IMG/VR virus record: IMGVR_UViG_3300045988_098116
Location: 1-64,000 of that record
Direction: 5' to 3' (one strand)
DNA: 64,000 nt
DNA from: a virus
In this document: positions 23,517 through 28,576 of the stretch, one piece after another
Layout of the letters: each line of letters starts with the position of its first letter
Position numbering within the stretch: position 1 is the stretch's first letter
The notes under the pieces: generated by a model
The model's input: the letters and a program-made list of their open reading frames with translations, nothing else
Database searches by the model: none
Told to the model about the DNA's origin: nothing
Program-made: the position numbers and the translations under genes

Positions 23517-23735
23517 ATGACAGTCCTTGAAGCGTGCGCCATGCTGGAGCTTGGCGACGGTATCAAACCCAATATTGAACTCACATTCGGCTCTTGCGGC
23601 GTTCCGTTCAACCCACAAAACGGCCTTGAGATGATGGCCTACGGCGATTTCCTCATCGAAACTTGCCACGTCTGGGAGGGCGGTGTCAACCTCGTCCTCA
23701 AGCAGCAGTTCTGCAAAAAGAACTGGAACGCATAA
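23517..23735 (+). CDS. small hypothetical protein (72 aa)
   Basis: CAGGAGGAAA RBS. In frame with track ORF 23238-23735. Confidence 0.55.
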   Translation: MTVLEACAMLELGDGIKPNIELTFGSCGVPFNPQNGLEMMAYGDFLIETCHVWEGGVNLVLKQQFCKKNWNA

Positions 23736-23747
23736 GGAGGGCACAGC

Positions 23748-23912
23748 ATGATCCCCTCCAACATCAATTTGGGCGATACCGTCACCCGCCGCATCGAGGC
23801 CACAGACCGCAAGGCCACCGGAACAGTCGTTTACATCCACCCGGAGGGCCGCTACTACACCGCCGAATTTGACCTCGGTCTCTACAAAATCCGCGAGTCC
23901 TTCAACACCTGA
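23748..23912 (+). CDS. small hypothetical protein (54 aa)
   Basis: Hand-translated. TAAGGAGGG RBS. Confidence 0.5.
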   Translation: MIPSNINLGDTVTRRIEATDRKATGTVVYIHPEGRYYTAEFDLGLYKIRESFNT

Positions 23913-23938
23913 AAATTCTTTCAAAAACTTTCAGAAGT

Positions 23939-23962
23939 TCCCTTGACACGGGGCGCATACTT
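23939..23962 (+). promoter_or_regulatory. TCCCTTGACACGG box followed by ATACTT, heading the tRNA/ncRNA locus
   Basis: Exact 13-mer. No ORF follows for about 1.5 kb. Confidence 0.55.
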
Positions 23963-24169
23963 AAAATTGCCGAAGGGGAGACCCCTTCCCCGACGGCTTC
24001 GGTGTACCCCCCGAATTATATAAGCCCTTCCGTAAGAAAGGCTGCACCGGTCTTACATCCATTCTTCCGGTGTTCCCAGCGCAATTCTGGCAGGAACGCG
24101 GTCACGGGGGCGCAAGCCCCTCTGTCGCACGTCAGCTCGCCCACCAGGACGTAAACAAGGTGGGGGTCC

Positions 24170-24245
24170 GGTGTCGTAGCTCAGCTGGCAGAGCAGCTCA
24201 TTCGTAATGAGCAGGTCGTGGGTCCGATCCCCACCGATACCTCCA
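24170..24245 (+). tRNA. tRNA-Thr(CGT): tRNA-Thr (anticodon CGT), CCA encoded
   Basis: Hand-folded cloverleaf: GGTGTCG/CGATACC acceptor, GCTC/GAGC D stem, GCTCA-TTCGTAA-TGAGC anticodon arm, GTGGG-TCCGATC-CCCAC T arm. The T loop is TCC rather than TTC. Confidence 0.8.
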
Positions 24246-24419
24246 ATTCTACGTGGACACCGCGAGTGACGAGCGTATAGCGGAACAGCCGTATGGGTGA
24301 TGCGAAGTCCTGAAGTAAGCCCCTCAAGCCTCGATGTTGTAATTGCGCCTGTGATCTGCTGGCAAAAGCGAGGCACGGAAAAGATCTGGCGGCTCGGAAA
24401 GACGAGCAACCCCCTCAAT

Positions 24420-24510
24420 GCAGATGTACCTCAGCCGTGGAAGAGGGTCTGATCGTAGCGTAAAGCGCGAGCTCGGAAAGTCGCAGGTTCGAATCCTGCC
24501 GTCTGCACCA
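24420..24510 (+). ncRNA. tRNA-like element (91 nt) lacking a normal anticodon loop
   Basis: Has the acceptor (GCAGATG/CGTCTGC plus ACCA), U8, a D arm (CCTC..GG..GAGG) and a T arm (GCAGG-TTCGAAT-CCTGC). The anticodon-stem position (TCTGA/TCGGA) encloses 20 nt that fold into GCGT-AAA-GCGC. Confidence 0.55.
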
Positions 24511-24836
24511 TAGGCGTGACCTCTTGCCTCGCAGCCGCACGGAGCGTAAGCCTGCGGAAGTGGTCTTTCCTGTGCGCTGTACGAAAGCGGCAGGACGAAG
24601 TAATTTATGTATTGGCTGGCACCGGCTTTGTAAAGATGAACGGATGCGACCGACGTACCGGCGCAGGGCTGAAAAGTTCCGTGGTTGGTTCGGGTGCCGG
24701 CGTGTGCGGCGAAAATCCGAGGCGATAACCTATAGATGTGGAAGCGGCGTGGTGGCGGCTGTCTTTGGACAAGGCCGCCGTGTAGGTCAGTAGCCATCCG
24801 CACCGGCACCCCGCCAACTGTGTCCCCGCAAAATTT

Positions 24837-24913
24837 GCAGCGTTAGTGTTCAACGGTCAGCACACCAGCCTTCCAAGCTGGGAGTGGCGGTTCGAATCCG
24901 CTACGCTGCTCCA
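24837..24913 (+). tRNA. tRNA-Gly(TCC): tRNA-Gly (anticodon TCC), CCA encoded
   Basis: GCAGCGT/ACGCTGC acceptor, CCAGC-CTTCCAA-GCTGG anticodon arm, GGCGG-TTCGAAT-CCGCT T arm. Confidence 0.8.
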
Positions 24914-25083
24914 TGCCCGCCTGATGGATGACTTCCCCCGTCAGGAATGAAACCTCCGCATCTGGCAGCGGTGTCGCCGGGTCGAACCAGCCGGTAGCAT
25001 GATTTGGGCGTGACAGCGAACGAAGGACGCCCCACCCCATCGGGGAGGCGGGCATCCCCCAGCCCGTCCTCCCCACTCTCTAC

Positions 25084-25231
25084 GCAGGAGCGCCGTTGGG
25101 GCGCTTGCACGGCACACACAGAGATCTCCTTTCTGCTGCTGTTGTTCGGACACATCAACACCTCCAATGTTCATGTTCTATTTTCCGTGCGCCGGCAAGC
25201 CATGCGGGTTCGACTCCCGCCTCCTGCTCCA
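25084..25231 (+). ncRNA. tRNA-like element (148 nt) with a 72-nt insertion in place of the anticodon loop
   Basis: GCAGGAG/CTCCTGC acceptor plus TCCA and GCGGG-TTCGACT-CCCGC T arm. The GCACGG (25107-12) / CCGTGC (25185-90) helix encloses a lower-GC insert. The D region is a CGCC-GTTGG-GGCG hairpin without U8/A14. Confidence 0.5.
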
Positions 25232-25404
25232 TCGGACGCGATAGGCGTCCGCGGTCCAGATAGGACCTCCTTTATAAATGCTGCGGCTGTAAGAAGCAGC
25301 ACCGGGTTTTGTTCATTTTCCCCGGCTCCTGTTGGAATACAGGCAGGCCAAGCGATTTCTCCTTCCGGGCGGCGCGGTCTGGGCAGCCCGCCGCCCAACC
25401 CCCT

Positions 25405-25480
25405 GGGGGATTAGCTCAATCGGCAGAGCAGGCCGCTCATAACGGCCCGGTTCCGGGTTCAAGTCCCCGATCCCCCACCA
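25405..25480 (+). tRNA. tRNA-Met(CAT): tRNA with CAT anticodon (Met, or Ile2 if lysidinylated), CCA encoded
   Basis: GGGGGAT/ATCCCCC acceptor, GCTC/GAGC D stem, GGCCG-CTCATAA-CGGCC anticodon arm, T arm with one mismatch. Confidence 0.8.
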
Positions 25481-25538
25481 GCCGCAAGGCGATAAAACGT
25501 TTCAGTCTGAAATCTACAACAGAAAGGAGGCACATTCC

Positions 25539-25814
25539 ATGACCAAGAGCGAGTTTATTTCTACTCTGGCAGCAGCGACCGACATGAAGAAGTCCGACGT
25601 CGAGCGCGTGATCGCCGCCGCTGCCAACACCCTTACCGGCGTCATGCGCTCCGGCGACAGCGTGAATATCTCCGGCTTCGGCATCTTCACCAGCAAAGTC
25701 CGCGACGCGCACCCCGGTAAGAACCCCGCTACCGGCGAGGCCATCACCGTCCCCGCTAAGCGCGTGGCCATCTTCAAGCCCGCAAAACAGCTCAAGGATG
25801 CCGTCAACAGCTGA
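25539..25814 (+). CDS. hup: HU/IHF-family histone-like DNA-binding protein
   Basis: MTKSEFISTLA...GDSVNISGFGIFTSKVRDAHPGKNPATGEAITVPAKRVAIFKPAKQLKDAVN. GAAAGGAGG RBS. Confidence 0.9.
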   Translation: MTKSEFISTLAAATDMKKSDVERVIAAAANTLTGVMRSGDSVNISGFGIFTSKVRDAHPGKNPATGEAITVPAKRVAIFKPAKQLKDAVNS

Positions 25815-25854
25815 CGGCGCAGGGCCGTACCCACACAAAATATCCCACATTACG

Positions 25855-25889
25855 AGCCGGACGGCACACCGCCCTCCGGCTTGTTTTGT
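25855..25889 (+). terminator. Rho-independent terminator after hup
   Basis: AGCCGGA-loop-TCCGGCT followed by TGTTTTGT. Confidence 0.6.
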
Positions 25890-25895
25890 AAACTA

Positions 25896-25919
25896 TATTT
25901 CCGTTGCGTTTTGAATATT
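25896..25919 (+). repeat. 24-nt element TATTTCCGTTGCGTTTTGAATATT (copy 1), 3 nt upstream of a TATAAT
   Basis: Identical 24-mer at 49101-49124. TATAAT at 25923-25928. Confidence 0.7.
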
Positions 25920-25959: not shown

Positions 25960-27015
25960 ATGATCTACTTCGACAACGCCGCCACCACACCGGTGCTTCC
26001 CTGCGCGTGGGAGGCCATGCAAGCCGCGCCGGAGGCAAACCCATCCAGCAGCCACGCCGCAGGGCGTGAGGCAAAAGCCGCGCTGGAAAACGCCCGCGCC
26101 GCCATCGCCCGGTGCCTCAACTGTGCTCCCTGCGAGGTCTACTTTACCTCCGGCGCCACGGAAAGCTGCAACTGGATGGTCAAATGTCTCCGCATAGAGA
26201 CAGACAGCATCATCTACAACGACACCGTTCACCACGCCGTCAGCGGGGGCATCCACGCCTATTCTTCCCCCAATGCGCCCCGCGGAAAGCCCTCCGCCGT
26301 CCTTTCTCTCGTCAACAATGAAACCGGGCAGATATGCGATGTGGACGCTTTCTGCCGCAAAAACCGTCCGCACCGCATCGGCATAGACGCCACCGCCGCC
26401 GTAGGCCACATCCCCGTGGACTTCAAGGCGCTGGGTGCGGACTACATGGCTTTCGGCGGCCACAAGTTCGGTTCCCTCAAGGGCATAGGCGCGTTGATTG
26501 TCAAGGAGGGGTGTCCCATCGCCCCCATGATCTTCGGCGGCGCACAGGAGCGCGGTATGCGCGGCGGCACGGTCTCCGTCCCCCTTGTCAGCTCTATGGC
26601 CGCCGCCCTCACCTGGCGCTCCCTCCACATGGAGGAAAACGAGAAAGCTATCCGCGCCGTCGCTCAAGAGCTTATCATTTCCCTTGGTTGCCACCGTGTG
26701 GATTTCGACATCAATCTGCCCGGCGGCAAAAGCAGCAAGGATTGCGCTCCCCACATCCTCTCCATCCGTTTTCCCGGCGTCTACGGCGCTGCCCTCGCCG
26801 CCGCCCTCAGCGTAAACGGCGTCATGGTGTCTACCGGCTCCGCCTGTTCCTCCGGCGACAACGCCGCCTCCGCCAACCTCATGGCCAGCGGCCTTACCGA
26901 GCAGGAGGCACTGGAGACCATCCGCTTCTCCTTCGACTGGTACAACACCACCGCCGAGGCATCCGAGGCCGCCGGCATCATCGCCGATATTGTCCCCACA
27001 CTCCGTCGCGGCTAA
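25960..27015 (+). CDS. cysteine desulfurase (NifS/IscS-like, aminotransferase class V)
   Basis: MIYFDNAATTP, GGHKFGSLKGIG (PLP lysine), SACSSG (catalytic Cys). GAAAGGAG RBS. Confidence 0.85.
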   Translation: MIYFDNAATTPVLPCAWEAMQAAPEANPSSSHAAGREAKAALENARAAIARCLNCAPCEVYFTSGATESCNWMVKCLRIETDSIIYNDTVHHAVSGGIHAYSSPNAPRGKPSAVLSLVNNETGQICDVDAFCRKNRPHRIGIDATAAVGHIPVDFKALGADYMAFGGHKFGSLKGIGALIVKEGCPIAPMIFGGAQERGMRGGTVSVPLVSSMAAALTWRSLHMEENEKAIRAVAQELIISLGCHRVDFDINLPGGKSSKDCAPHILSIRFPGVYGAALAAALSVNGVMVSTGSACSSGDNAASANLMASGLTEQEALETIRFSFDWYNTTAEASEAAGIIADIVPTLRRG

Positions 27016-27393: not shown

Positions 27394-27567
27394 ATGCTCG
27401 TCACCAACGTGATAAAGCGCGAATACCCCTTCACCGTCCGCCGCAAGCGGGACGGCGAGATTATGACCATGCTCATCACCGCCGAAAGTGAGTCCGCCGC
27501 CCGTCTGCTGCTTCCCGACACCGTGGAGCTGGTGGGACCACGCGAACCCCACAGGAAGGAGGAATGA
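27394..27567 (+). CDS. small hypothetical protein (57 aa)
   Basis: GGAGGAA RBS. Confidence 0.5.
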   Translation: MLVTNVIKREYPFTVRRKRDGEIMTMLITAESESAARLLLPDTVELVGPREPHRKEE

Positions 27568-27574
27568 CCCCATT

Positions 27575-28576
27575 ATGCCAAGACCCGCCCCTCAAATCAT
27601 TGGGAAAAAGTTTGGACACCTTACCGTCGTCAAAAAAGCCGAAGAAAAAGGCCGTACAAGATACCTTTGCCAGTGCGATTGTGGCAACAGCGTCGAGGTC
27701 TTTGCATCGAGCATTATAAGTGGTCACACGAAAAGCTGTGGCTGTATAAAGCGCGATCAGCCTGCGCATAACTTCTTCGATATTACCGGGATGAAGTTCG
27801 GGCACCTCCATGTGCAAGGTGTCGACCACAAATTTAACGGGAGGGTTTATTATAAATGTCTGTGCGACTGTGGGAAAGAAATCGTTGTTCTCGGAAACTC
27901 TTTGAAGCGTGGTGCTACACACAGTTGTGGATGCGCACGATCTCAGGCGATTTCAAAAAAAATACGCACACACGGCGAGTCCTCCACACGGTTATTCCGG
28001 GTTTGGACCGGCATGAAAAACCGATGCTATAACAAAAACGAGCCGTCCTACCAGAATTATGGCGCTCGCGGAATCGGTGTATGCTCGGAATGGTTAAACA
28101 GCTATGAAGCGTTCCGAGACTGGGCTTTAGCAAACGGCTACGACGAAAATGCGCCCTACGGGGAATGTACGCTTGACCGAATTGACACAAACGGAGATTA
28201 CTCTCCGGGGAATTGCCGTTGGGCAGATCTTACAGTTCAGGCCAACAATAAGACTACCAGCCACTTTATTGACTTTCGCGGTGAGCGCCATACCATAGCA
28301 GAGTGGAGCAAAATTTTGGGCATCCCAAAGCATATTATAAACACTGGGCTCCGTGCCGGTAAGCCTTTTTCGGAAATCATTGAGCTACCACATATTAGGA
28401 GAACCTATATAACACTTGGTGGAAAGACTCTCTCTATTTCGGCATGGGAACGCGAAATGAATCTTGCGCAAAAAACTATTTCGCGGCGATTAAAGCAAGG
28501 GTGGAGCGCCGAGGATGCAATATTAACACCCTCAGCCAAAAAGAAAAAGGAGTGTGCAAAAAATGGGCAGAAGTAG
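27575..28576 (+). CDS. DNA-binding protein with duplicated CxCxCG zinc modules and an AP2/HNH-associated-like domain
   Basis: Two FGHL..V...CxCDCG...SCGC repeats, then LDRIDTNGDYSPGNCRWA. AGGAGGAA RBS. Visibly lower GC than its neighbours. Confidence 0.6.
   Translation: MPRPAPQIIGKKFGHLTVVKKAEEKGRTRYLCQCDCGNSVEVFASSIISGHTKSCGCIKRDQPAHNFFDITGMKFGHLHVQGVDHKFNGRVYYKCLCDCGKEIVVLGNSLKRGATHSCGCARSQAISKKIRTHGESSTRLFRVWTGMKNRCYNKNEPSYQNYGARGIGVCSEWLNSYEAFRDWALANGYDENAPYGECTLDRIDTNGDYSPGNCRWADLTVQANNKTTSHFIDFRGERHTIAEWSKILGIPKHIINTGLRAGKPFSEIIELPHIRRTYITLGGKTLSISAWEREMNLAQKTISRRLKQGWSAEDAILTPSAKKKKECAKNGQK

What the first reader, a model, noticed from the sequence alone, without database searches (positions are those of the whole stretch)
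25084..25231. Second tRNA-like element: acceptor/T-arm/CCA frame around a 72-nt insertion
GCAGGAG (25084-90) pairs perfectly with CTCCTGC (25221-27), followed by T plus CCA. The T arm GCGGG-TTCGACT-CCCGC is canonical. The anticodon-arm position is a 6-bp helix, GCACGG (25107-12) with CCGTGC (25185-90), enclosing a noticeably less GC-rich 72-nt insert. The D region is a compact CGCC-GTTGG-GGCG hairpin without U8 or A14. The result is a cloverleaf-like frame carrying a cargo segment. I considered tmRNA and rejected it: there is no G3:U70 pair and none of the three plus-strand frames has a stop inside the insert, so there is no stop-terminated tag ORF. Two such elements interleaved with genuine tRNAs argue for function rather than accident.
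Basis: seen in the sequence. Interest (0 to 1): 0.65.

Follow-up and report, generated by a model that had tools for sequence, protein, structure and literature searches.

The report
Phage tRNA-shaped RNA with anti-SD-like cargo
A common human-gut phage carries, inside its tRNA gene array, a gene for a tRNA-shaped RNA whose anticodon arm is replaced by a long arm displaying pyrimidine-rich words identical to the ribosome's anti-Shine-Dalgarno tail; it looks like an undescribed family of phage small RNAs, function untested.

Summary
Window 25084-25231 (+) has a perfect 7-bp acceptor stem, U73, CCA and a canonical T arm. ARAGORN and Rfam do not call it.

Related gut-phage contigs carry about eight types at the same slot, between tRNA-Gly(UCC) and tRNA-Met/Ile. 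They share the frame: acceptor, 3-bp D hairpin with a GG loop, an anticodon-position helix and a T arm. Compensatory changes support the frame (16 pairs against 8.0±1.5 in shuffles).

The inserts differ in length and sequence (roughly 30-130 nt). They are G-poor and keep CACCUCC and CCUUUCU(G), the two halves of the Firmicute 16S 3' tail, in predicted unpaired loops.

It is not a tmRNA, an intron-bearing tRNA or a minus-strand ORF.

Best reading: a tRNA(Gly)-derived scaffold that RNase P and RNase Z excise from the array transcript. The scaffold presents anti-SD-like loops that pair with ribosome-binding sites. No specific target was found and expression is untested. One close relative, MT835520, lacks the element through a clean 216-bp indel.

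The parts
25084..25231 (+). Whole tRNA-like element (148 nt), called TL2 here
   Evidence: Sequence; fold; model R1 scores 189 bits and R2 finds one copy per related phage
25084..25090 (+). Acceptor stem 5' strand, GCAGGAG
   Evidence: Pairs with 25221-27. Pairs 3:70 and 5:68 change on both sides in other types (GCGGAAG/CTTCCGC)
25092..25102 (+). Mini D hairpin GCC-GUUGG-GGC; the loop always contains GG
   Evidence: 3 bp kept in all 21 distinct frames; loops are GTTGG, ATTGG, GTCGG, GCTGG, GTCAGG, GTAGG, AGGT, AGGG and AAGG
25103..25113 (+). Anticodon-position helix, 5' strand (GCUUGC-A-CGGC)
   Evidence: MFE and alignment fold. Six different sequences keep a 5-8 bp helix here in the other types. 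Ten pairs in helices 3 and 4 show both-side changes
25114..25190 (+). Cargo: G-poor, pyrimidine-rich distal arm. It replaces the anticodon loop and is variable between types
25123..25135 (+). GAUCUCCUUUCUG word. UCUCC (25125-29) forms a predicted hairpin loop; CCUUUCU starts at 25128
   Evidence: Unpaired probability 0.99 for UCUCC. CCTTTCT and CTTTCTG are each shared by 4 of 8 insert types; 0 of 500 shuffles reach this
25159..25165 (+). CACCUCC word, identical to the 16S rRNA anti-SD heptamer. It sits in the loop of hairpin 25152-25176
   Evidence: Unpaired probability 1.00. CACCTCC is shared by 4 of 8 insert types; 0 of 500 shuffles reach this
25191..25200 (+). Anticodon-position helix, 3' strand (GCCG-GCAAGC)
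25201..25203 (+). Short variable region (CAU; 1-3 nt in other types)
25204..25220 (+). T arm GCGGG-UUCGACU-CCCGC
   Evidence: The second pair is C-G in 14 and U-A in 7 of 21 sequences
25221..25231 (+). Acceptor 3' strand CUCCUGC, discriminator U, CCA
   Evidence: Some other types end A-CAA instead
25042..25074 (+). Leader hairpin GGGGAGGCGGGC/GCCCG(U)CCUCCCC, 9 nt upstream of the element
   Evidence: -27.2 kcal/mol, z = -6.1. L056 has GGAGAGGCGGGC/GCCCGCCUCUCC, a compensatory change
25233..25267 (+). Two trailer hairpins (25233-51 and 25253-67). The second is followed by UCCUUUAU
   Evidence: z = -3.6. L022 has GGGCGC/GCGCCC where the window has GGACGC/GCGTCC. The second hairpin is the only terminator-like hit
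25045..25260 (+). 216-bp block (leader, element, trailer) missing from the otherwise 90-99% identical phage MT835520

Best explanation
The element is a gene for a stable, tRNA-shaped small RNA. It belongs to a family confined to one clade of temperate human-gut phages.

The frame is a 7-bp acceptor stem, a 5-bp T stem with a canonical T loop, a 3-bp D hairpin with a GG loop, and U73-CCA. It derives from a tRNA(Gly)-like gene. It keeps what RNase P, RNase Z or 3' exonucleases and the CCA-adding enzyme recognise: the 12-bp acceptor/T minihelix and the D/T elbow. The RNA would therefore be cut out of the polycistronic tRNA-array transcript and would be as stable as a tRNA.

The anticodon stem is extended into a long arm. 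Its distal part is G-poor and displays, in loops, pyrimidine words identical to the two halves of the Firmicute 16S rRNA 3' tail (CACCUCC and CCUUUCU). I infer that these loops pair with purine-rich Shine-Dalgarno regions (AGAAAGGAGG-type) of mRNAs and so modulate translation initiation. This would work like C-rich-loop sRNAs of Firmicutes and like the RNase-P-processed C4 antisense RNA of phage P1.

Shown here: the sequence features, the conserved frame with covariation, the variable cargo, the conserved exposed words, the position in the array and the prevalence. Inferred: transcription, processing, stability and SD pairing. The target or targets are unknown.
For: Frame: perfect acceptor and T arm. 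The unconstrained fold keeps them (z = -3.1), as do 9 of 11 homologue folds.

Family: models R1 and R2 find exactly one copy, at the same slot, in 30 of 30 IMG/VR contigs of the clade and in 25 of 25 sampled assembly contigs. There are about eight types of 104-195 nt.

Covariation: acceptor pairs 3:70 (A-U to G-C) and 5:68, T-stem pair 2 (C-G to U-A), and six unrelated anticodon-position helices. 98.3% of cells are paired. 16 pairs have both-side changes, against 8.0±1.5 in shuffles (0 of 500) and 1-4 in slid controls.

Elbow determinants: the D loop always has GG and the T loop is TTCRANY.

Cargo: the most shared 7-mers among the 8 insert types are CACCTCC, CCTTTCT and CTTTCTG, each in 4 of 8 types (0 of 500 shuffles). 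The top 6-mers are ACCTCC, CCTTTC and TTTCTG, each in 5 of 8 (P = 0.01). Local alignment to GATCACCTCCTTTCT beats shuffles in the window (p = 0.008) and L092 (p = 0.0075), with p = 0.04-0.06 in three others. The words are predicted unpaired (0.84-1.0 in 7 of 8 types, against an insert mean of 0.42-0.72).

Context: the element has the same orientation as the flanking tRNAs, in a 1.6-kb noncoding array. Phage genes use strong SDs; the HU gene has (C)AGAAAGGAGG in all relatives.

Precedents: T4 rnaC in the T4 tRNA cluster has a canonical T arm and its role is unknown. RNase P processes phage regulatory RNAs such as C4.
Against: There is no expression or processing data.

The pairing energy of each insert with its own HU RBS is not better than that of composition-matched shuffles (p = 0.03-0.97). 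A duplex scan of the 64-kb window found no outstanding target. SD pairing capacity is thus largely a property of composition.

Two types (L070/L115 and L056) lack an exact CCUCC.

The types share ancestry, so k-mer sharing is not fully independent evidence.

The whole array, spacers included, is 97-100% conserved among window-type phages. Conservation there is not specific to the element, and the insert is its least conserved part.

MT835520 lacks the element. Several types lack an encoded CCA and have A73.

The alignment used for pair counts was fitted by the model. The scans that found members fixed much of the frame sequence.
Confidence: 0.45

Rival explanations
1. Frame-first decoy. The functional part is the tRNA-like frame, which titrates or distracts a tRNA-binding host factor: a tRNA-targeting defence nuclease or toxin, GlyRS, the CCA-adding enzyme, or a T-box. 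The long arm is mainly a spacer that prevents decoding.
For: The frame is far better conserved than the cargo. The acceptor G1-C72, C2-G71, G/A3-C/U70 plus U73 resembles bacterial tRNA-Gly identity (my knowledge) and matches the phage's own tRNA-Gly(UCC), which is GCAGCGU...U73. The same arrays hold many other tRNAs with aberrant anticodon arms, which suggests pressure on that arm.
Against: It does not explain why unrelated cargos keep CACCUCC and CCUUUCU exposed in loops. The discriminator and CCA are not conserved: four types end A-CAA. No defence or toxin partner was identified.
Confidence: 0.15
2. Protein sponge. The G-poor, C/U-rich unstructured cargo binds a pyrimidine-preferring protein (Rho via a rut-like site, ribosomal protein S1, or a phage protein) rather than RNA.
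For: Inserts have C well above G: 31/19, 28/16, 23/11, 21/7 and 31/11. They have high predicted unpaired fractions. Pairing to an RBS is no better than composition predicts.
Against: The words conserved across types are specifically the two halves of the 16S 3' tail, not generic YC repeats. The inserts of the shortest types (41 nt in L026) are much shorter than a typical rut site (my knowledge).
Confidence: 0.12
3. Decaying or neutral tRNA relic. A tRNA-Gly duplicate lost its anticodon arm and hitch-hikes in a recombination-prone, highly conserved array with no function of its own.
For: Conservation is array-wide, not element-specific. MT835520 does without it. Some members lack CCA. The array is a hotspot for indels and endonuclease genes.
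Against: There are compensatory changes in three helices and six different anticodon-position helices. Exactly one copy is present in 55 of 55 sampled contigs of the clade, across about eight types. The loop words are conserved and exposed.
Confidence: 0.12
4. Intron-containing tRNA. The insert is spliced out to give a functional tRNA.
For: The insert sits where tRNA introns sit. At a relaxed threshold (-ps80) ARAGORN can force 'intron' models.
Against: ARAGORN at default thresholds finds nothing, even with introns allowed. The forced calls give eight different anticodons for eight types. Rfam finds no group I intron or any other family at E<=10. The inserts, roughly 30-130 nt, are mostly below known group I sizes (my knowledge). 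The D arm is reduced in all types and the variable region is only 1-3 nt.
Confidence: 0.04
5. Miniature tmRNA or trans-translation RNA.
For: It has a tRNA-like acceptor and T arm, with a long helix replacing the anticodon stem, as in the tmRNA tRNA-like domain.
Against: Pair 3:70 is A:U or G:C, never G:U. There is no stop-terminated tag frame. ARAGORN tmRNA mode is negative even at -ps80. No Rfam tmRNA model matches this locus at E<=10. At 104-195 nt it is far below tmRNA size.
Confidence: 0.02
6. The CCUCC and CCUUUCU words are ribosome-binding sites of a small ORF on the minus strand (GGAGG-N5-ATG at 25165-25153).
For: The minus strand reads TTGGAGGTGTTGATG, followed by an open frame (24901-25167).
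Against: Among near-identical variants the ORF length varies (42, 43, 62, 71, 85, 90 aa) because of frameshifting indels. L046 loses the ATG frame. L070, L115 and L081 have no such ORF. Other types give unrelated peptides of 7-62 aa. Observed substitutions are non-synonymous.
Confidence: 0.01

Closest known systems
Bacteriophage T4 species 1 RNA (rnaC), and rnaD, in the T4 tRNA cluster
   Same: A small stable RNA of about 140 nt encoded inside a phage tRNA gene cluster, on the same strand as the tRNAs. It has a canonical T arm (CCGGG-UUCGAAU-CCCGG) and a 3' acceptor-like end. Its biological role is unknown (PMC3014915).
   Different: There is no sequence or model homology: R1 hits only T4 tRNA-Leu. 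rnaC has two large hairpins instead of a mini D hairpin plus one long arm. No anti-SD-like words were looked for or seen in it. The host is a proteobacterium.
C4 antisense RNA of phages P1/P7 (Rfam C4 family)
   Same: A phage regulatory RNA whose precursor is an RNase P substrate (Hartmann et al. 1995, cited in PMC4919922). From my knowledge, its loops pair with the ribosome-binding region of a phage mRNA. This is the mechanism I propose here.
   Different: No Rfam match at E<=10. C4 is about 77 nt, lacks a full T arm and elbow, and has a defined cis-encoded target. No specific target was found here.
tmRNA (tRNA-like domain)
   Same: Acceptor stem, T arm and 3' CCA, with a long helix taking the place of the anticodon stem.
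   Different: No G3:U70, no tag ORF, no pseudoknots, and about half the size or less. It is not detected by ARAGORN or Rfam.
Engineered 'tRNA scaffold' for recombinant RNA expression (Ponchon and Dardel; PMC3753655 listed)
   Same: The design is identical: the cargo RNA is inserted in place of the anticodon stem-loop of a tRNA, so that the chimera is processed and stabilised like a tRNA.
   Different: That is a laboratory construct. This would be a natural counterpart, with a reduced D arm.
C-rich-loop sRNAs of Firmicutes (RsaE/RoxS and the UCCC-motif Rsa RNAs of Staphylococcus; my knowledge)
   Same: Exposed C-rich loop motifs that pair with the G-rich Shine-Dalgarno region of target mRNAs.
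   Different: Those are chromosomal, terminator-ended sRNAs without any tRNA-like frame. There is no homology.

Membership tests
Canonical tRNA (Rfam RF00005 / ARAGORN) | 7-bp acceptor stem, 5-bp T stem with a T-loop consensus, discriminator plus CCA | tested here: met
   7 bp + 5 bp in all types
Canonical tRNA (Rfam RF00005 / ARAGORN) | D arm of 3-4 bp with U8, A14 and an 8-11-nt loop; 5-bp anticodon stem with a 7-nt loop and a readable anticodon | tested here: not met
   The D hairpin has 3 bp and a 4-6-nt loop, 1 nt after the acceptor. The loop position holds about 30-130 nt. Forced ARAGORN calls give eight different anticodons
Canonical tRNA (Rfam RF00005 / ARAGORN) | Reaches the model or score threshold | tested here: not met
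   No RF00005 hit at this locus even at E<=10, and no ARAGORN call
tmRNA | G3:U70 alanine identity pair | tested here: not met
   A3:U70 in the window type, G3:C70 in the others
tmRNA | Internal tag reading frame ending in a stop codon; pseudoknots; detection by ARAGORN or Rfam tmRNA models | tested here: not met
   No stops in the insert; ARAGORN -m is negative at default and at -ps80; no Rfam tmRNA hit at this locus
tRNA with group I intron | Group I catalytic core in the anticodon loop; splicing restores a 7-nt loop | tested here: not met
   No Intron_gpI or other Rfam hit; no consistent anticodon. Splicing itself cannot be tested here
C4 antisense RNA (P1/P7) | Match to the Rfam C4 model | tested here: not met
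   No hit at E<=10
C4 antisense RNA (P1/P7) | RNase P generates the 5' end; loops pair with a target RBS | not testable with these tools
   Needs in vitro processing and binding assays. No specific complementary target was found in the window
T4 rnaC-like stable RNA of phage tRNA clusters | Encoded within a phage tRNA cluster on the tRNA strand, with a tRNA-like T arm and 3' end | tested here: met
T4 rnaC-like stable RNA of phage tRNA clusters | Sequence or structure homology to rnaC | tested here: not met
   R1 does not hit rnaC or rnaD
RNase P / RNase Z / CCA-enzyme substrate class (tRNA-like minihelix plus elbow) | 12-bp coaxial acceptor/T stack, T-loop consensus, D-loop GG for the elbow | tested here: met
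   All 21 distinct frames. Actual cleavage cannot be tested here
Bacterial Y RNA / YrlA tRNA mimics | Match to Rfam Y-RNA-type models; linkage to an Rsr/Ro gene | tested here: not met
   No Rfam hit. The neighbouring genes scanned are ORF6N, HU, a class-V aminotransferase, HNH and an integrase

The most novel reading that the evidence does not exclude
The RNA is a portable anti-Shine-Dalgarno. It is a tRNA-shaped molecule that carries the ribosome's own mRNA-recognition sequence at the tip of the arm where an anticodon should be. It may act as an abundant competitor that masks SD sequences. More radically, it may dock in a ribosomal tRNA site through its acceptor/T elbow and reach the SD of the bound mRNA. 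Either way the phage would reprogram which messages are initiated. Its hypervariable arm would reflect an arms race or host adaptation.
Probability: 0.2. Interest if true: 0.85.

Novelty: new variant of a known kind. Interest (0 to 1): 0.62.

Why it matters
Phage tRNA clusters have been known since T4 to hold tRNA-like stable RNAs of unknown role. This family offers an informative example.

It provides a natural experiment: one conserved tRNA frame with about eight swapped cargos that all keep exposed anti-SD-like words. It also provides a natural knockout, MT835520.

It is abundant. The adjacent HU gene is found in more than 1000 assembly blocks of human-gut data.

If the scaffold idea holds, it is the natural counterpart of the engineered tRNA scaffold. 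It would be a new way for phages to make stable regulatory RNAs from tRNA operons. If the anti-SD reading holds, it is a new way for phages to interfere with translation initiation.

It also shows that standard tRNA and ncRNA annotation (ARAGORN, Rfam) misses such genes.

Tried and rejected
1. Target search. An RNAduplex scan of both strands of the 64-kb window with the two loops and the whole insert gave only the trivial antisense self-match and generic purine-rich sites.

2. HU RBS as a specific target. The RBS is invariant, (C)AGAAAGGAGG. Pairing is not better than with shuffled inserts.

3. Minus-strand ORF. Rejected because of frameshifts and non-conserved peptides.

4. Intron-tRNA and tmRNA. 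Rejected.

5. Element-specific conservation. Not found: the whole array, including spacers, is 97-100% identical. Spacer 24511-24836 shows no excess structure (z = 0.15).

6. CCTCC count alone is uninformative. It occurs 222 times on the plus strand of the window, because many genes lie on the minus strand.

7. Promoter scan of 23700-25900. No sigma-70-like site.

8. Wider searches. The frame pattern in metagenomes mostly returned archaeal intron-containing tRNA-Leu/Ser. In 185k species genomes it returned one phage-like contig, L115, plus five ordinary tRNA-Leu false positives. More distant phages (CysDes 25-48% identical) have no TL2, only other odd tRNAs.

9. Host identification failed. Portal tblastn hits only MT835520, and the assembly contigs are metagenomic.

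10. Literature searches found no description of such an RNA.

Full report
OBSERVATION. GCAGGAG (25084-90) pairs perfectly with CTCCTGC (25221-27), followed by U25228 and CCA (25229-31). The T arm is GCGGG-TTCGACT-CCCGC (25204-20). A compact CGCC-GTTGG-GGCG hairpin follows the acceptor. GCACGG (25107-12) is complementary to CCGTGC (25185-90). The 72 nt between them are 43% GC, against 74% for the frame, and carry no stop codon in any plus-strand frame. The 148-nt RNA folds without constraints into acceptor, small hairpin, long arm and T arm (-55.7 kcal/mol, z = -3.1, 0 of 200 shuffles as stable). ARAGORN does not call it. Rfam does not call it either, at gathering thresholds or at E<=10 over 23900-25560. 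Both tools do find the flanking tRNA-Thr (24170), tRNA-Gly-UCC (24837) and tRNA-Met (25405). Rfam also calls the other odd element at 24420-24507 a tRNA (47.5 bits).

THE HELIX AT THE ANTICODON POSITION. The MFE, the alignment fold of 16 variants and all homologue types place the helix directly after the D hairpin. G25103-C25108 pairs with G25195-C25200, extended past a bulged A25109 by C25110-C25113 with G25191-G25194. Three nucleotides (CAU) then lead into the T stem. Only the GCC/GGC core of the D hairpin is conserved.

RELATIVES. The closest GenBank record, faecal phage MT835520, is 90-99% identical around the locus. It lacks window 25045-25260 exactly: a 216-bp block made of a strong leader hairpin, the element and two trailer hairpins.

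A scan of IMG/VR for the T-arm plus acceptor 3' strand found 24 contigs with near-identical copies (97% mean identity). A covariance model built from these (R1) was run on related phages fetched through the neighbouring cysteine-desulfurase gene. At the same slot it found diverged elements of 195, 131 and 104 nt.

Pattern scans with the family's 5' signature and T arm added further types from IMG/VR and from metagenomes. Most metagenome hits were archaeal intron-bearing tRNAs and were discarded. Among 185,579 species genomes only one contig, a 69-kb phage-like contig binned in a MAG, carries a member. It is therefore not a host gene.

In total there are about eight types. Further sampling through exact-protein look-ups returned only these same types. 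Model R2 finds exactly one copy in 30 of 30 IMG/VR contigs of the clade and none in MT835520. All 25 sampled assembly contigs also carry one. More distant phages (desulfurase 25-48% identical) lack it.

THE FRAME IS UNDER STRUCTURAL SELECTION. All types keep the following features:
- a 7-bp acceptor stem;
- one unpaired base;
- a 3-bp hairpin whose 4-6-nt loop always contains GG;
- a helix of 5-8 bp that starts 0-1 nt later and ends 1-3 nt before a 5-bp T stem;
- a T loop of TTCRANY.

The acceptor changes from GCAGGAG/CTCCTGC to GCGGAAG/CTTCCGC, so pairs 3:70 and 5:68 change on both sides. The second T-stem pair is C-G or U-A. The anticodon-position helix has six unrelated sequences: GCTTGC/GCAAGC, CTCGA/TCGAG, GTCGT/ACGAC, AAACGACA/TGTCGTTT, AAGTGG/CCGCTT and GAACGGC/GCCGTTC.

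On a model-fitted alignment of 21 distinct sequences, 98.3% of cells pair. Sixteen pairs show changes on both sides, against 8.0±1.5 in shuffles (0 of 500) and 1-4 when partners are slid. Two caveats apply. The alignment is fitted to the model. The scans that found the members fixed part of the frame.

The retained features are the 12-bp acceptor/T stack, the T loop and the D-loop GG. From established knowledge, these are what RNase P, RNase Z and the CCA-adding enzyme read.

THE CARGO. Inserts differ in length (roughly 30-130 nt beyond the shared helix) and cannot be aligned as a whole. They are all G-poor and C/U-rich.

An unbiased count of k-mers shared among the eight insert types puts CACCTCC, CCTTTCT and CTTTCTG on top. 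Each occurs in 4 of 8 types, and no 7-mer reached 4 in 500 shuffles. ACCTCC, CCTTTC and TTTCTG each occur in 5 of 8 (P = 0.01). Joined, these words read CACCUCCUUUCU(G). From my knowledge, that is the 3' tail of Firmicute 16S rRNA (GAUCACCUCCUUUCU), the anti-Shine-Dalgarno region.

Local alignment of each insert to that tail beats mononucleotide shuffles for the window (p = 0.008) and L092 (p = 0.0075). It is marginal for three types (p = 0.04-0.06) and not significant for three. In the window the words are GAUCUCCUUUCUG (25123-35) and CACCUCC (25159-65). Both sit in hairpin loops. Across types the CCUCC-like words have predicted unpaired probabilities of 0.84-1.0 in 7 of 8, against 0.42-0.72 for the inserts overall.

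LIMITS OF THE ANTI-SD READING. I could not find a specific target. A duplex scan of the window gave nothing beyond generic purine-rich sites. The invariant RBS of the downstream HU gene, (C)AGAAAGGAGG, pairs with the inserts no better than with shuffled inserts. Two types lack an exact CCUCC. The types are related by descent. The raw count of CCTCC is uninformative, because the window's plus strand is full of it (222 occurrences).

CONTEXT. The window is a temperate tailed phage with a portal, a tape-measure protein, an integrase and a CHAP/amidase lysin in relatives. Its GC content is 58%. The host is unknown and no isolate relative exists. The element lies in a 1.6-kb noncoding array (23913-25538) between a 54-aa ORF and an HU gene. 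Downstream lie a class-V aminotransferase/cysteine desulfurase, an HNH endonuclease gene that MT835520 lacks, and the integrase. The whole array, spacers included, is 97-100% identical among phages whose flanking genes are 79-91% identical. High conservation of the window-type copy is therefore not evidence by itself. The argument rests on the comparison between types. The exact HU protein occurs in 1089 blocks of the assembly collection, so the phage group is very common in human gut data.

MECHANISM. My best account (confidence about 0.45 for the whole chain) has three parts.
- It is a real structured RNA gene. This is shown as far as sequence comparison can show it; I would put it at about 0.85.
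- The tRNA(Gly)-derived frame serves as a processing and stability handle. The array transcript would be cut by RNase P at 25084 and by RNase Z or exonucleases at the 3' end, with CCA added where it is not encoded. This is inferred, at about 0.6.
- The exposed anti-SD-like loops pair with Shine-Dalgarno regions to modulate initiation. This is inferred from conserved words and accessibility, at about 0.35.

RIVALS.
- A frame-first decoy for a tRNA-binding enzyme or defence nuclease (0.15).
- A pyrimidine-tract protein sponge, for Rho or S1 (0.12).
- A neutral tRNA relic (0.12).
- An intron-bearing tRNA (0.04). ARAGORN finds nothing at default thresholds, and its forced calls give eight different anticodons.
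- A mini-tmRNA (0.02). There is no G3:U70, no tag frame and no model hit.
- A minus-strand small ORF behind the GGAGG words (0.01). Frameshifting indels make its length 42-90 aa among near-identical variants, and other types have unrelated peptides or none.

COMPARISON WITH KNOWN RNAs. The nearest precedent by setting is T4 species 1 RNA (rnaC). It is a 139-nt stable RNA in the T4 tRNA cluster with a canonical T arm, and its role is still unknown (PMC3014915). It is not homologous.

By proposed mechanism, the nearest are the RNase-P-processed C4 antisense RNA of P1/P7 (reference in PMC4919922) and the C-rich-loop sRNAs of Firmicutes. Neither shares the frame, and Rfam gives no match. By design, it is the natural counterpart of the engineered tRNA scaffold.

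Full-text searches found no description of a tRNA-shaped phage RNA with anti-SD-like cargo. I file it as a new variant of a known kind: tRNA-like small RNAs of phage tRNA clusters. It is not a member of any named family.

VERDICT. This is a real, conserved and previously unannotated RNA gene family with an unusual architecture and a suggestive cargo motif. Function and expression are untested. Interest 0.62.

Noticed in passing
window 24420-24510; L119 2890-2971, L042 4364-4440, L123 2770-2851, L056 8097-8178: The other odd element, in slot 1, is a near-canonical tRNA (Rfam 47.5 bits) with a 19-20-nt anticodon loop. In relatives this slot holds tRNAs that share the acceptor GCAGAYG/CGTCTGC-A-CCA and the T arm. 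They carry different, often oversized anticodon arms: an 82-nt 'Gly-CCC', a 4-nt anticodon GGTA and an 82-nt 'Cys'. Here too the frame is conserved and the anticodon arm is swapped.
   Followed up: partly
L117 3418-3492, L122 3420-3493, L123 3419-3490, L125 3420-3491, L115 3930-4005: Some arrays carry an extra tRNA-like gene between tRNA-Gly and the element. ARAGORN reports 2-nt or 4-nt 'anticodons' for it (ga, tgac).
   Followed up: no
window 27488-28576 (HNH endonuclease); L122 2759-3172 (PDDEXK_5); L123 2033-2731 (HNH_3): An HNH endonuclease gene is present in the window but absent from MT835520 (an indel of about 1 kb). In other relatives endonuclease genes sit inside the tRNA array itself. 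The region is a hotspot for mobile endonucleases, as with segB in the T4 tRNA cluster.
   Followed up: partly
window 23913-25538 compared with 25960-27015: The whole noncoding tRNA array, including 170-330-nt spacers, and the HU gene are 97-100% identical among phages whose flanking genes are only 79-91% identical. Spacer 24511-24836 shows no excess fold stability (z = 0.15). Why the spacers are so conserved is unexplained; a recent sweep or recombination of the module is one possibility.
   Followed up: partly
window 25960-27015: A class-V aminotransferase/cysteine desulfurase (NifS/IscS-like) gene follows the tRNA array and the HU gene in all relatives. It is possibly linked to tRNA thiolation.
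   Followed up: no
L158 1266-1366, L164 841-941, L167 612-712 and about 10 other loci: More distant phages (desulfurase about 44% identical) carry a 101-nt tRNA-like gene. It has an 8-bp acceptor, a 4-bp T stem, a 4-nt D loop, a 9-nt anticodon loop (ACUCACACC) and a long variable arm. This is a tRNA-Sec/allo-tRNA-like architecture.
   Followed up: no
window 25262-25275: Just downstream of the element, GGACCUCCUUUAUAA is another stretch matching the 16S 3' tail (ACCUCCUUU). It overlaps the 3' arm of the second trailer hairpin. It is retained in MT835520, which lacks the element.
   Followed up: no
window 24480-24684: A second faecal phage record, MT835513, shares only this stretch at 90% identity: the 3' end of the slot-1 element plus the following spacer. 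This suggests exchange of array pieces between otherwise unrelated phages.
   Followed up: no
L071 650-784, L094 10615-10749 compared with L042 and L026 types: The L071/L094 type looks chimeric. Its 5' half matches the L042 type and its 3' half matches the L026 type (shared TTTTTGCGCGTCGCCGTT, GTGGG T stem and ACAA tail). This implies recombination within the element.
   Followed up: partly
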